From contig NW_026939883.1 of the NCBI RefSeq assembly GCF_032062105.1, forward strand, positions 1 through 64,000: DNA of 64,000 nucleotides, in the 5' to 3' direction. The DNA is from Saccostrea cucullata (lineage: Eukaryota). A program made the translations under genes and the position numbers. Numbering within the stretch: the first letter of the stretch is position 1; each line of letters opens with the position of its first letter. Below the pieces are notes generated by a model. It saw only the letters and a list, made by a program, of their open reading frames with translations. It had not been told where the DNA came from and ran no database searches. This document shows, in pieces, positions 6,428-12,400 of the stretch.

Positions 6428-9400
6428 TCACTCGGTCATTAAGAGCTCGTCTATTCCCCAGTCTTCAAAGCTGCCATCAGGGAGGTAACGACGAATTATG
6501 ATTGGAATCTTTCTGGCTCTACATTAAAAAAATAAATCAGAGGTGAAAATTTTTGTCTGTATTATGAGCAATACAAGTGTTCAAATATTACTAGTTTTCT
6601 TTCATAATATCACATACACTAGACAATAAATGTGTTATGGTTTTGAGGTTTTCCTAAAAAATACAGGAATCCTGGCTAAGATATTAATGGTTCTTTAAAA
6701 TATTTCACTTGAAATTTAATTCATATCAATGATAGATTTGTCTCTATCTATTTAACTACAGAATGATGAGACATTGGTGACCTACTTGAGTTCCTTCATT
6801 GCAATCAGTAGAGGATCAGTTTCTCCTTCCAGTTCTACCATTACTGGGGCACACATCCTGTTCAATAATATATTTTATTTATTAATAAAGTCACAGTTTT
6901 TTAATCCAAGTTTTTGTCCAATATTTTTATTGCATATATCATAATTTATCATAACTTCCTGGACGTCAATCACAGTTTGTATGACAATTTTTGTAAGAAT
7001 TTTCTTATTATTTCCAGTGTCTGCACTGCTTCATTTACATAGAGTATAATTTTAAAATTTGAGAACTGGAAAAAAAGATTTGGCAAATAATTAAATTGTA
7101 GAGTATTAGGGGGAAAGGGTGTCAATATCATACCTGGTAATAATCGTATTAACAAGTAAATCAGAAGAGTATAGCAGACATGCTATTATCTGTTAAAGTT
7201 CCATGAACCAATACGTTATATCGCGACTACCAATGAGTACCTCGCAGTTATCTAACTTACTACCGCTCTTTTGCGGGGGAGTCGAGAAAAGTCTAATTTC
7301 TGGGGGCAAATGACATTGTTTACAGTAGTGACAATCGAATGATTCGAACAATTTAATGCCGAAATCACAATGTTTTGCCAGATATTGAACTCCAAAATAG
7401 TAGATTGTCAAATAAGGAAAGTTTAGAATATTTTATTTGCTTAAAAATGTGACGATTTTCAATGAAAATTTAACGAGAAGAGTCCGCTTAATTAAAAATA
7501 TCGTTAAAAATGTGACAATTTAGGATTGGCTCCTCTCAAAAATATATCAGGCTGGTTCAGCGATTGTTTAGCGAGGTATTCCACAAGGAATTTTTACTTA
7601 TCTGACCTTACAAATGCTACAATGATCGATCTTGCTTTGTATTGAATAGCTCATTGCCCCCACCCAACAGATGATTCCTACCTCCTTCGCGAAAGAGTTC
7701 CGCTAAGTTAAGTAATCGCGATATCAAGTATTCAACAAGCTTGCGACACTTACGCGATCTGTAAGGCTCTTGTACCAAGGACTCTGGCTCGTTCATACTT
7801 TGTCATATAAGGAGTTGTGATTCGCTTTTGTGGCTCCACAGGCTGGCTAGCTTGATCGGCTGGGAGGATGTCTATTGGGTCACCATCCTTAAAACAGAGA
7901 GTATTTACTCGATATAAAGGAATTTCAATTCTCTCGTTCTTTCTCTTCTGGATATTAAAGATGATCTATGAAATCCCTTATATTAAGAACTATTCCAACT
8001 TTATTACCCAAATTATGTTTAGTTCCGTATACATAATGATTCGTCAATACTAAAAACTTCAGTCTGAGGTCTTTCAGATAGACATCAGACCAGAATTAAT
8101 GAAAATATGCATAGAATGATAGATGAATTTTTCAACAATGTGTGTTAAGGTAGGTCCGTACTTTCTGAATTTTCTGTCAAACTCTTTATTTTTTGATTTG
8201 AAAATCTTAAATAAGTCATAATCTAACTAAAACACCCATAAAAAACATATCTTTGCAGGTTATTTTTTATGCAACATGTCTCGGAGTATATACCTCTAAA
8301 AATGCAACAGCAAAAATTCAACATATAGATGTGTAACATCATATTTTATCTAGCTATGTGCCAAATCACATCCAATTATTGTTAAAACTTAGGAAAATCA
8401 TAAATATTCATTTGTCAAGAAAATTTTTGAAATTTCTATTTGAAAACACTAAAAAATTGATGTTAATTCTGTCAAATTCTTTCAGAGAAAAAGTTCAAAA
8501 TATCTTTATTTTAAATATTTCTCAAAATCCTGTTTGTTTATATGCTATTTTTTCTTCACAATTATTTAGAATTATATCTTAGGTTAGCAAAAAAACATAC
8601 TTTATTATGGTTGACCAGAAAATTTTTACAAAACAGCCTTTTGAACACCTATACCCCCATTTTTTGTAATATCTATTTTTTCAATCGTTCTTCGCAAAAC
8701 TTATTAAAAAGTAAATTTAAAAAGATGATATAGGCTAAAAATTAAAGATAAAATGATCTCAAGTTAGTTTGTTTAAAAAAATTAAAAAGCTTTAGGTCCA
8801 TAAAGGCAATTAAGAAAACTCTGTCTGTGTATGTACTAAATTACATATAGATCCTATGGACAGAGTTCAAAGTGGTTATTCCTATAAATAATGTACATTA
8901 AATGCTTTGTGTGCACAATGACACTATAATAAACAAATATATACTTGCTAAATTATTTTCAATCATCCAAAAAGATTTTTTTTCAATAGATAAGGATAAT
9001 CAAAATTTTATATTGGTGTGTAAAATTAAAACCGGATCCGTAAAAGTGTGGACCTGCCTTAAGACAGCTTCTGAATAATTAGGCCAGCATTTTTTTATTT
9101 TTAGGTTTACAAACCCGCCGCTCAAGTTTTTGAATTTTCAGAAAAAAAATAAAATTAAGAATAACAGATTTTTTTCTTTCCGATGTCAACTTTGAGTCGG
9201 GATCGAGATTTCAAATTTACGAACTCGTACTTCCGGTTTTAAAAACATGGCGGGTAATGAAGGGAGATTTGTGTCAAGGTAGCTAAACACAGTTTCGTAT
9301 AAAATCCAGAGGGTTTTTCCCAGAGAGAAGCATGCTGGGTAGGGATTTTCCTGCTATTTATAGGAGTCTACATGAAAACTGCATCTTGTTTGTTTTTATT

Positions 9401-12400
9401 CGCATAAAGTAGAGTCTTATCTTAATATTTAAAGAAAAAAATGTGCATTTATTTAAAAAAAAAAAAATTTGTGAGACTTTTTAAAAGGGGGAGATAACTC
9501 CCAAAACATGCGGTTTTCACATGTGCAGAATTGCATGAGTCAAGTAGCAGGTAATGTAGCTCTTTATAGAGGTGGAAAATGTACCCTGAAAGCACCATTA
9601 AAGAAAACCTTAGGACTTGTTCTGTGAAATGCACATAACTTATTTTGTCAGGTTTTTTCTGTTTTTGTTGAGCAGGGGGGCTAAAAATGCATAGGTGTAC
9701 TGAAAATGGATGCATAAATATCCCAATATCCCCCATGTTTCATGTGTCAAATTCCCCCTATTAGAAATTGATACATGTTTTATAGTTGGATATTTATAAA
9801 ATTCACAATTTTATCTTTCCATTGATATGTAGAAGTCTATGTAACAAGCCTCCATTTTATTTCTTTATAGGGATCAGTTTTGCTTGTCCCTCACCAAGTA
9901 ACGTCCTGATAACGTCATACATAAAACTGTGTTTTGCACCCTTAAGGAGTAGCATTTGATGACATTACCCACATTTTTTTGCCTGTAAGTTCATAGAAAA
10001 TTGCTTTATTTGTTTTAATTTATGTAGTAAACCATACAATATAATCTCAGGTTGACTCTGTGTCAGGCATAATGCCTATTACATGTAGATACATGTTCCA
10101 TAGAATATATAAATGTGATCAGGATTCTGAGGACTAAAGTTGTTATTTTACATTATGACGCAACTGCATTGTGACATCAAAGTGTGACGTCATGTAAAAA
10201 CAGAAGCTCCGCAAGGTCATGACCTTCAATTTAATTGATCGCGAAGGAGAATACATATTATCTGTATAGATATACATGTGACATAGACCTATTGAGTATC
10301 TAGTTAGGGTGACACAGTCCAGACTTTTAAGGCAATATTTTGATTTAACACAGTGACTATTTCACATTAGATCCCCCCCCCCCTTGTTCATACAGAAACT
10401 GGCAATATGTGTAAAATTTGTTTAGGAGCTTTTAAAAAAAATTATAAAGTAAAATTTTATTGATATTCAAATACTGTATATTCCATACTTTGTGTTTTTT
10501 AAGATTTAGAAAAGTAGAATTATTGGTGAGCTGATTCAGTTATAGGTTTGAATTTCTCTTCGAAGTCTTGTTTCATGCGTCGACCAATGTCGTAGACATG
10601 TAATACTAAATTTACAATTTCTTGCCCATTTCTTGACCAAATTCAACAATTTATGCACCAAAATGTTTGGAATTCTGTCTTCTTTGCACCTAAATACAAA
10701 AAAGTGAATTGCAGAAAATTTTTATTTCCTTTAAGGTAGCTAAACACAGTTTCGTATAAAATCCAGAGGGTTTTCCCAGAGAGAAGCATGCTGGGTAGGG
10801 ATTTTCCTGCTATTTATAGGAGTCTACATGAAAACTGCATCTTGTTTGTTTTTATTCGCATAAAGTAGAGTCTTATCTTAATATTTAAAGAAAAAAATGT
10901 GCATTTATTTAAAAAAAAAAAATTTGTGAGACTTTTTAAAAGGGGGAGATAACTCCCAAAACATGCGGTTTTCACATGTGCAGAATTGCATGAGTCAAGT
11001 AGCAGGTAATGTAGCTCTTTATAGAGGTGGAAAATGTACCCTGAAAGCACCATTAAAGAAAACCTTAGGACTTGTTCTGTGAAATGCACATAACTTATTT
11101 TGTCAGGTTTTTTCTGTTTTTGTTGAGCAGGGGGGCTAAAAATGCATAGGTGTACTGAAAATGGATGCATAAATATCCCAATATCCCCCATGTTTCATGT
11201 GTCAAATTCCCCCTATTAGAAATTGATACATGTTTTATAGTTGGATATTTATAAAATTCACAATTTTATCTTTCCATTGATATGTAGAAGTCTATGTAAC
11301 AAGCCTCCATTTTATTTCTTTATAGGGATCAGTTTTGCTTGTCCCTCACCAAGTAACGTCCTGATAACGTCATACATAAAACTGTGTTTTGCACCCCAAG
11401 TCCATCATGTCCATAGCAGCACTAAAGCTTGGTTTAATGTAAATATTTATCGATAAGAGTGCCATTCAAAACGTTTCACCCGTTCAGAGAACAATAAAAT
11501 GCTGACGACTTTGTTGCAAAGTGACATGGTGGTGAGATAATTATGTATCCGTATTCAAAAGTAACTGTCTGTAATTGTAAATTATTTTCCTCCCACAGGT
11601 TTAAAACTGCCCACGGTAGCTATTGTCAGAGACATTGTTTAGGTTTCTGTCATAGCTTACAGTCTTAGCATCATTCTTCAGAAAAGGGTCGCTTATGCAT
11701 CAGATGTAATGAATAAAACTATGGGAGAAGTTAAGTCCATTTGATGAAGAAATAAACAATAGCCTAAACAAATAAAATATTTCAACTATTTAAAAACAAT
11801 AATATACAAATATATACAGGCATGTAGTATCATTTATGGCAGCCAGAAAAATTATTTTACACTTAATTAAAAAAAATTCCACCCTACTCCTCAATACTCC
11901 TTGGGAATACTCCATGCCTGTTTTATGAAAGGAATTATTACTTTTATAGGTCTCGAATATATTAATATTTTAGAATAATTTCTACCGAACACACATTAAA
12001 AACAAAAATGAAGATATATTAAAAGAGATTTAAAAAATTGATTTTTTTTTTTGAAAATCTGTATTTTGTCCAACATCAAAAGATTTATATCACTGCCCCC
12101 AACTGGTAGATGATGAAATAAACAATTAAAGGTTATATTTTCCCCTTTGTAACCCTTATGTGTCCAGTGGCAAGAAGCCTGTTAGGAGAGCATAAAAAAA
12201 GAAGCAAAAATTATTGTAGAAAAGTCGATAATGTATCCAAAATATAATTTTTTTTTTTTTTTTATTTCCTCCTCCTACGGGACTTTTTCATTCTGATGTT
12301 CGTAAACCTAAAAATAAAAAAATGCTGGCCTTATAGTAAAATTACCTCCTGTGTTTCCACTGCTTCGTCCAAAGGTTCGTCATCGTCATCAATATCATCA

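What the first reader, a model, noticed from the sequence alone, without database searches (positions are those of the whole stretch)
9278..11396. Young composite-type transposon with long terminal direct repeats (KolobokP-like) in a housekeeping-gene intron
Seen: two ~663-bp direct repeats, each with its own TIRs, bracket a ~785-bp internal segment with no long ORF, joined by TTAA junctions. The outer flanks are TCAA and CAAG, not TTAA. Established: KolobokP elements, described in molluscs and other invertebrates, have this bacterial-composite-like LTDR architecture and yield solo LTDRs. Inference: a non-autonomous derivative that moved recently as one unit into a non-canonical target. It could be mistaken for an LTR element or a simple duplication.
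Basis: partly seen in the sequence, partly recalled or inferred. Interest (0 to 1): 0.7.

Follow-up and report, generated by a model that had tools for sequence, protein, structure and literature searches.

The report
Gene-less KolobokP transposon, identical end repeats
This is one copy of a common, gene-less member of a known kind of mollusc jumping DNA (KolobokP), sitting inside another small repeat in an intron of an RNA-polymerase subunit gene; it is ordinary, except that its two long end repeats match each other while differing by about 6% from every other copy examined, which likely means the two repeats are made alike when or before such elements jump.

Summary
The architecture is real. 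LTDR 9278-9941, an internal part with TTAA at both ends, and LTDR 10735-11396, with 0 substitutions between the LTDRs. It is a non-autonomous KolobokP of the ~660-bp class, homologous to the published KolobokP-3_CGi. The genome holds at least 157 LTDR ends as solos, monomers and arrays. It also holds an autonomous relative (DDE transposase plus His-Me nuclease, same 18-bp TIRs), of which this copy is an internal-deletion derivative. It sits in a 1.12-kb MITE in intron 2 of POLR2F/RPB6. The 'non-canonical target' is wrong: the flanks are a 3-bp duplication (CAA), the norm for this class (42 of 46 intact insertions; none TTAA). 'Young' is likely but unproven. One oddity: this copy has no sibling in the assembly. 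It is at least 37 substitutions from all other LTDRs examined, yet its own pair is identical. In 14 of 17 intact multi-LTDR loci the outer pair differs by 2 or fewer, against medians of 12-19 to other loci (44 for the window). LTDRs therefore seem reset or homogenised, a step I did not find in the KolobokP paper. Earlier scan notes said the same on other DNA. New member of a known kind; modest interest.

The parts
9278..9941 (-). LTDR (664 bp) with 18-bp imperfect TIRs; it is the 3' LTDR when read in the transposase direction of the autonomous relative
   Evidence: orientation
9942..10734 (-). Internal region (793 bp including the TTAA at each end; core 9946-10730), no ORF. Deletion derivative of the 3,360-bp autonomous INT: keeps about 645 bp upstream of the transposase start and about 160 bp of the far end, and has lost both genes
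10735..11396 (-). LTDR (662 bp), 0 substitutions from the other LTDR
9275..9277 (+). 3-bp target-site duplication CAA, left copy
   Evidence: empty site has a single CAA
11397..11399 (+). 3-bp target-site duplication CAA, right copy
11400..11408 (+). 9 extra bases (a 6-bp local duplication plus 3 bases), absent from 17 of 17 other host copies; possibly a repair scar or an old footprint (inference)
9082..12330 (.). Host MITE, about 1.12 kb without the insertion, with GGCC..GGCC ends, ~35-bp TIRs and a 3-bp TTA duplication; 'Harbinger-like' is a recalled label, not tested
   Evidence: (I4)
6429..13882 (-). POLR2F/RPB6 gene (coding exons 13882-13854, 12406-12346, 7887-7754, 6857-6786, 6518 to the stop); the element lies in intron 2, 950 bp from the exon-2 donor

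Best explanation
It is a gene-less KolobokP element (LTDR-INT-LTDR) that was likely cut out at its outer inverted repeats and pasted as one unit, recently, by the transposase of a related full-length element, leaving a 3-bp duplication inside a MITE in an RPB6 intron. Shown: the anatomy, the TSD, the empty site, descent from the autonomous lineage by internal deletion, and identical TIRs on an intact-ORF relative in the same genome. Inferred: that this relative, or an unseen closer one, supplied the enzyme. Inferred: that the two LTDRs are identical because the donor was a head-to-tail array or an LTDR-INT circle in which one LTDR sequence had been copied onto all positions, so the pair starts identical at insertion and then ages like an LTR pair. 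Inferred: that the donor belonged to a rare sister subfamily now absent from this assembly.
For: TSD CAA and empty site. Census of 37 distinct TSD-bounded sites: 19 solo, 9 monomer, 9 multimer, hand-tallied. Autonomous array C1748 has five units at about 4,025 bp, a 623-aa PF20700 transposase (E 5e-34; two stop-free copies) and PF05551 on the opposite strand (E 3e-11), LTDR 80% identical, identical 18-bp TIRs and TTAA junctions. By-eye match to published KolobokP-3_CGi: 59 of 70 first LTDR bases, and 74 of 84 residues in a C-terminal transposase stretch. First-versus-last LTDR differs by 2 or fewer in 14 of 17 TSD-bounded loci, while their medians to other loci are 12-19, and 44 for the window. 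The window pair shares 15 variants seen in no other of 122 LTDRs and has 0 in one LTDR only. The element carries more near-private change (57 of 1155) than its older host MITE (26 of 1127 from majority; Fisher p 8e-4), so much of its divergence predates this insertion. At 7 of 37 sites both autonomous outgroups side with the window, so it is a sister lineage, not a decayed copy. In two apparent allele pairs of older monomers the LTDRs have drifted apart without being re-equalised.
Against: No donor or sibling was found: a diagnostic 20-mer with up to 1 mismatch hits only the window's two LTDRs, which is awkward for a very recent jump. The nearest autonomous element is only 80% identical in its LTDR. 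Inside arrays, LTDRs are more uniform than INTs, so in-place homogenisation exists or is mimicked, and identity may overstate youth. 3 of 17 loci have LTDR pairs 9-14 apart, and one-end-only private variants total 23 against 19 shared outside the window. No reads of this species were available, so neither the junctions nor an empty allele were checked on raw data.
Confidence: 0.8

Rival explanations
1. It is the same KolobokP element, but an old resident whose two LTDRs were homogenised in place by gene conversion, possibly triggered by His-Me nuclease cuts inside the LTDR.
For: No sibling in the assembly. Within 15 arrays there are 35 segregating sites in LTDRs against 93 in INTs, a normalised ratio of 0.38 against 0.78 between 27 loci, with INT higher in 11, lower in 3 and tied in 1. 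C11083 has 4 letter-identical LTDRs around INTs with 10 variable sites.
Against: The host MITE, which must be older, is only 1.3-2.3% changed, while the element is 4.9%. Shared window-specific changes reach to 33 bp from one LTDR end and 69 bp from the other, which needs a near full-length conversion. Older monomer allele pairs are not homogenised (n=2).
Confidence: 0.13
2. The perfect LTDR pair is partly an assembly product: a mis-join, or polishing that erased real differences.
For: The assembly is fragmented (23,869 contigs). C7848 looks chimeric, and the mosaic of family and private alleles among the INTs of C6476 could come from consensus mixing. No same-species reads could be laid.
Against: Both flanks continue one host MITE in register with a correct TSD. 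The pair shares 37 non-majority substitutions, which polishing towards the family majority would have removed. The structure equals that of 8 other TSD-bounded monomers.
Confidence: 0.04
3. It is an LTR-retroelement derivative (TRIM or LARD-like), two independent solo insertions, or a simple tandem duplication.
For: Identical direct repeats at insertion, solos and tandem arrays also typify LTR elements and TRIMs (PMC9587614 discussion).
Against: The ends are GG..CC with 18-bp TIRs, not TG..CA, and the TSD is 3 bp. Both LTDR and INT are homologous to a DDE plus His-Me element. INT recurs between paired LTDRs at many loci.
Confidence: 0.01

Closest known systems
KolobokP-3_CGi (Pacific oyster; Kojima and Bao 2022, PMC9587614; Table S1: 4,918 bp, LTDR 653, TSD 3, TIR 18)
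   Same: LTDR start homologous (59 of 70 bases by eye). INT starts with the same TTAA-led stretch. The autonomous relative's transposase matches 74 of 84 residues in the stretch compared by eye. LTDR length class, TIR length and TSD length all agree.
   Different: The window copy is non-autonomous (2,119 bp). No KolobokP-3 non-autonomous family is listed for that species in the part of Table S1 I read (part 1 of 2), and an exact 15-mer of this LTDR end occurs nowhere in the four supplements.
Non-autonomous ~660-bp-class families KolobokP-N1_MyEd (2,070 bp, LTDR 663, TSD 3) and KolobokP-7N2_CorFlu (2,453 bp, LTDR 664)
   Same: Size, LTDR length, 3-bp TSD, and coexistence of monomers, solos, multimers and INT-INT joints.
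   Different: The start of the N1_MyEd LTDR resembles this one only in the TIR, so it is a different family. The 7N2_CorFlu sequence was not compared.
Bacterial IS26/IS6 pseudo-composite transposons and translocatable units (as cited in PMC9587614; details recalled)
   Same: Directly repeated terminal modules with their own TIRs around a passenger; a one-module circle could regenerate two identical modules.
   Different: In KolobokP the transposase lies in the passenger, not in the module, and no circle has been shown.

Membership tests
KolobokP | LTDR-INT-LTDR with LTDRs of about 450 or about 660 bp | tested here: met
   664 and 662 bp
KolobokP | Each LTDR has its own 11-18-bp TIR and RR..YY ends | tested here: met
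   18 bp, 15 of 18 match, GG..CC
KolobokP | 3-5-bp TSD without strong sequence specificity (3 bp for most ~660-bp families) | tested here: met
   CAA here; 42 of 46 intact insertions have matching 3-bp flanks
KolobokP | Solo LTDRs, (LTDR-INT)n-LTDR multimers and INT-INT joints in the genome | tested here: met
   19 solo, 9 monomer and 9 multimer TSD-bounded sites; INT-INT in C11376, C7088, C8047; C3289 has at least 12 units
KolobokP | DDD/E transposase plus opposite-strand His-Me nuclease in INT (autonomous members only) | tested here: met
   Absent from the window copy, as expected for a non-autonomous member. Present in the relative C1748 that shares LTDR and INT ends: PF20700 and PF05551, with D, D, CxxH, E and CCHC-like motifs located by pattern
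KolobokP | Transposase falls in the KolobokP clade by phylogeny | not tested
   No tree built; only a by-eye match to KolobokP-3_CGi_1p
KolobokP | Mobilisation in trans by the autonomous transposase | not testable with these tools
   Inferred from identical TIRs
Canonical Kolobok (TTAA-specific) | 4-bp TTAA TSD at the outer ends | tested here: not met
   0 of 46 intact insertions; TTAA occurs only at the LTDR-INT joints
LTR retrotransposon / TRIM | TG..CA ends, 4-6-bp TSD, RT-bearing partner (recalled definition) | tested here: not met
   GG..CC ends, 3-bp TSD, DDE plus His-Me partner
PIF/Harbinger MITE (host element) | 3-bp TWA-biased TSD, GG..CC TIRs, matching autonomous partner (recalled definition) | tested here: inconclusive
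   3-bp TSDs mostly TAA or TTA in the 16 copies printed with both ends; no partner sought

The most novel reading that the evidence does not exclude
KolobokP, a DNA transposon, rebuilds both end repeats from a single template as part of its life cycle, either by replicative integration of an LTDR-INT circle or by nuclease-triggered LTDR-to-LTDR conversion in arrays that then shed new copies. Its end repeats would then be an LTR-like insertion clock without reverse transcription. This copy is an unusually clean case: 0 differences within the pair and at least 37 to any other LTDR examined.
Probability: 0.5. Interest if true: 0.55.

Novelty: new member of a known kind. Interest (0 to 1): 0.27.

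Why it matters
As an insertion it matters little: it is intronic, 950 bp from the nearest splice site, in an intact gene. The family as a whole offers a test bed for an open question. How KolobokP keeps its composite structure, and what the His-Me nuclease does, is stated to await experimental confirmation (PMC13565253 passage). The data here say LTDR pairs do not age as independently carried modules, and that LTDRs in arrays are about twice as uniform as expected from their INTs. The same genome holds an intact-ORF partner with matching TIRs that could be assayed.

Tried and rejected
(1) Idea that the window contig is a foreign or introgressed haplotype. It arose because public 'organism A' reads differ about 5-7% from the window's unique DNA but carry the main-subfamily allele at 6 of 6 sites checked. 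Rejected: a second contig is equally far from organism A (39 of 762 and 58 of 1010 bases), and the one unique stretch tested is single-copy. The genome is simply a relative of organism A (2 loci tested). (2) Read test for mis-assembly or an empty allele: no listed run holds more than 0.23 of the words, and the joint tables were swamped by repeats, so no verdict. (3) Search for a closer autonomous partner: the transposase search scored 71 of 390 candidates. The best were C1748 and C23043 (LTDR 80% and 77%) plus fragments. (4) Of 20 His-Me loci fetched (from 93 matches), only 2 share this LTDR. (5) A 4-bp TSD with a lost base: rejected by the family census. (6) The binomial p of 1e-4 for LTDR-versus-INT uniformity is not taken at face value, because sites are linked. 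Two apparent allelic duplicates were dropped, and C5901, C7848 and C22858 go the other way. (7) Literature: 'KolobokP' occurs in 2 papers of the library. A four-term search gave 6 papers, seen as listings only, none visibly about LTDR-pair identity. Supplementary Figures S2-S5 of PMC9587614 were not read and may bear on this.
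Full report
Observation. The window shows a 664-bp repeat at 9278-9941 and a 662-bp repeat at 10735-11396. They differ by two 1-bp homopolymer indels and no substitutions. Each has an 18-bp imperfect TIR (15 of 18 match) with GG..CC ends. Between them lie TTAA, a 785-bp core whose longest stop-free stretch is 72 codons, and TTAA.

Setting. The element interrupts a 1.12-kb MITE (9082-12330; GGCC ends, TTA duplication). That MITE is abundant: the search scored 40 of 1,966 candidates, and the near-full-length matches were 93-97% identical. 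In 17 of 17 copies that I could cut out (19 fetched, 2 dropped because an end motif failed), the site is empty and has a single CAA. The duplication is therefore CAA, 3 bp. The window also has 9 extra bases right of it, seen in none of the 17. The MITE lies in intron 2 (7888-12345) of a minus-strand gene with five coding exons and GT-AG introns, which translates to 128 residues. Exon 3 matches RPB6/RPABC2 (Pfam E 3e-5, below the family cut-off because partial; PDB E 7e-12).

Family. Exact 20-base LTDR left ends number at least 157 (117 + 20 + 20). Ends preceded by C/G/T then A were not counted, and 5 belong to the autonomous array. Among fetched loci, 46 have both outer ends intact: 42 have matching 3-bp flanks, 4 do not, and none has TTAA on both sides. 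After merging apparent allelic duplicates, 37 distinct sites remain: 19 solo LTDRs, 9 monomers and 9 multimers (hand tally). Their TSDs are mostly TTT, TAA or AAA, and CAA occurs once; my pattern searches bias this composition. Arrays reach at least 12 units (C3289), and INT-INT joints occur. This is the repertoire described for KolobokP by Kojima and Bao (PMC9587614). I read parts 1-4 of 6 of the text, keyword passages, Table S1 part 1 of 2, and excerpts of Data S1/S3. Their Table S1 gives 3-bp TSDs for most ~660-bp families, so the 'non-canonical target' idea falls.

Partner. A His-Me profile search gave 93 matches. Of 20 loci fetched, 2 share this LTDR. C1748 is an array with a period of about 4,025 bp. 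It has a 623-aa transposase (PF20700, E 5e-34; two stop-free copies), a His-Me ORF on the opposite strand (PF05551, E 3e-11), an LTDR 80% identical to the window's, identical 18-bp TIRs and TTAA joints. The window's INT, read on the minus strand, aligns to the first ~700 and last ~160 bases of the 3,360-bp autonomous INT and lacks everything from before the transposase start to past the nuclease. By eye, the LTDR start matches published KolobokP-3_CGi at 59 of 70 bases, and a C-terminal transposase stretch matches at 74 of 84 residues. The host is therefore probably an oyster (inference).

The oddity. The window's LTDR is 37-38 substitutions from the nearest other LTDR (122 others; 49). Its INT is 58-71 from 39 others. 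Other loci differ from each other by about 2.2% (LTDR) and 2.8% (INT). A diagnostic 20-mer with up to one mismatch finds only the window's two LTDRs. At the 37 differences from the family majority, both autonomous outgroups side with the majority at 19, with the window at 7, and are mixed or different at 11, so this is a sister lineage. Its near-private change (57 of 1155) exceeds that of the older host MITE (26 of 1127 from majority, 15 private; Fisher p 8e-4), so much of the divergence came with the donor. Had it inserted with the MITE and aged freely, 18-30 differences between the LTDRs would be expected; 0 are seen.

What this says about mechanism. If two LTDRs were carried through jumps as independently ageing modules, a pair should differ about as much as two loci do. 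Instead, first and last LTDR differ by 2 or fewer in 14 of 17 TSD-bounded loci, against medians of 12-19 to other loci (44 for the window); the three exceptions differ by 9-14. Outside the window, locus-private variants are shared by both ends 19 times and confined to one end 23 times, 17 of these in the three exceptions; the window has 15 and 0. In two apparent allele pairs of older monomers the LTDRs have diverged without re-equalising, which fits 'identical at insertion, then ageing'. Within 15 arrays, LTDRs are more uniform than INTs (35 against 93 segregating sites; ratio 0.38 against 0.78 between loci; 11 arrays for, 3 against, 1 tie), and some arrays mix distinct INT haplotypes between near-uniform LTDRs. 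That fits LTDR-focused conversion or crossover in arrays, as in the paper's speculative nuclease model. However, sites are linked, and consensus artefacts are not excluded (C6476, C7848). I commit to: cut-and-paste of a monomer from a donor whose LTDRs had been made alike, recently, by a trans-acting transposase. The enzyme source, the homogenising step and the date are inferred.

Against and unresolved. No donor was found. The nearest autonomous LTDR is 20% away. No same-species reads were available: the best run holds 0.23 of the words, and two loci are about 5-7% from those runs. The foreign-haplotype idea was tested and dropped.

Novelty. This is a new non-autonomous family of a published lineage. 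LTDR-pair identity is not discussed in the parts of PMC9587614 that I read ('identical' 2 hits, 'identity' 1, 12 of 15 passages shown). The only other library paper naming KolobokP says the nuclease model awaits confirmation (PMC13565253, one passage). Two earlier AI notes of this scan report the same LTDR re-equalising on other DNA. They were read after my analysis and are not independent support. Interest 0.27.

Noticed in passing
window 105-3337 (+): C-terminal exons of a cullin gene (Pfam Cullin and Cullin_Nedd8), converging on RPB6; the name cullin-5 is recalled from the sequence.
   Followed up: partly
window 12476-13637: About 1.15-kb element with nested inverted repeats (131-, 59- and 55-bp arms) filling most of RPB6 intron 1.
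   Followed up: no
window 19786-21927: Long tandem 30-bp repeat open in several frames, reading as a lysine/glutamate-rich decapeptide repeat.
   Followed up: no
G000 C8521:117450-121686 and apparent allele C8984 (L216, L217): A dimer of this family is inserted, with a TTA duplication, inside the terminal inverted repeat of an older, opposite-strand LTDR of the same family; a single site.
   Followed up: no
G000 C20288:6070-6568 and C23805 (L023, L205, L206): An insertion of about 490 bp with GGTC..GACC ends sits at the TTAA between LTDR and INT, with TTAA on both sides, like a canonical Kolobok-type MITE using the junction as target.
   Followed up: no
G000 C12393 and C11200: Tandem arrays of 9 units with stop-free Kolobok-type transposase matches (periods about 3.13 kb and 4.02 kb). 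C11200 has His-Me matches; C12393 does not appear among the 93 His-Me matches.
   Followed up: no
G000 C7088, C23574, C11083 (L194, L204, L218): Arrays contain INT units of a different haplotype between near-uniform LTDRs; in C7088 several variants are shared with C12686, which hints at import of units between loci.
   Followed up: partly
G000 C22776:1501-3237 (L207): A block of INT-LTDR-INT is inverted relative to the adjoining array.
   Followed up: no
window 1-20000 and L189: The best-holding public runs differ from this genome by about 5-7% in unique DNA at both loci laid, so the assembly is from a relative of that organism.
   Followed up: yes
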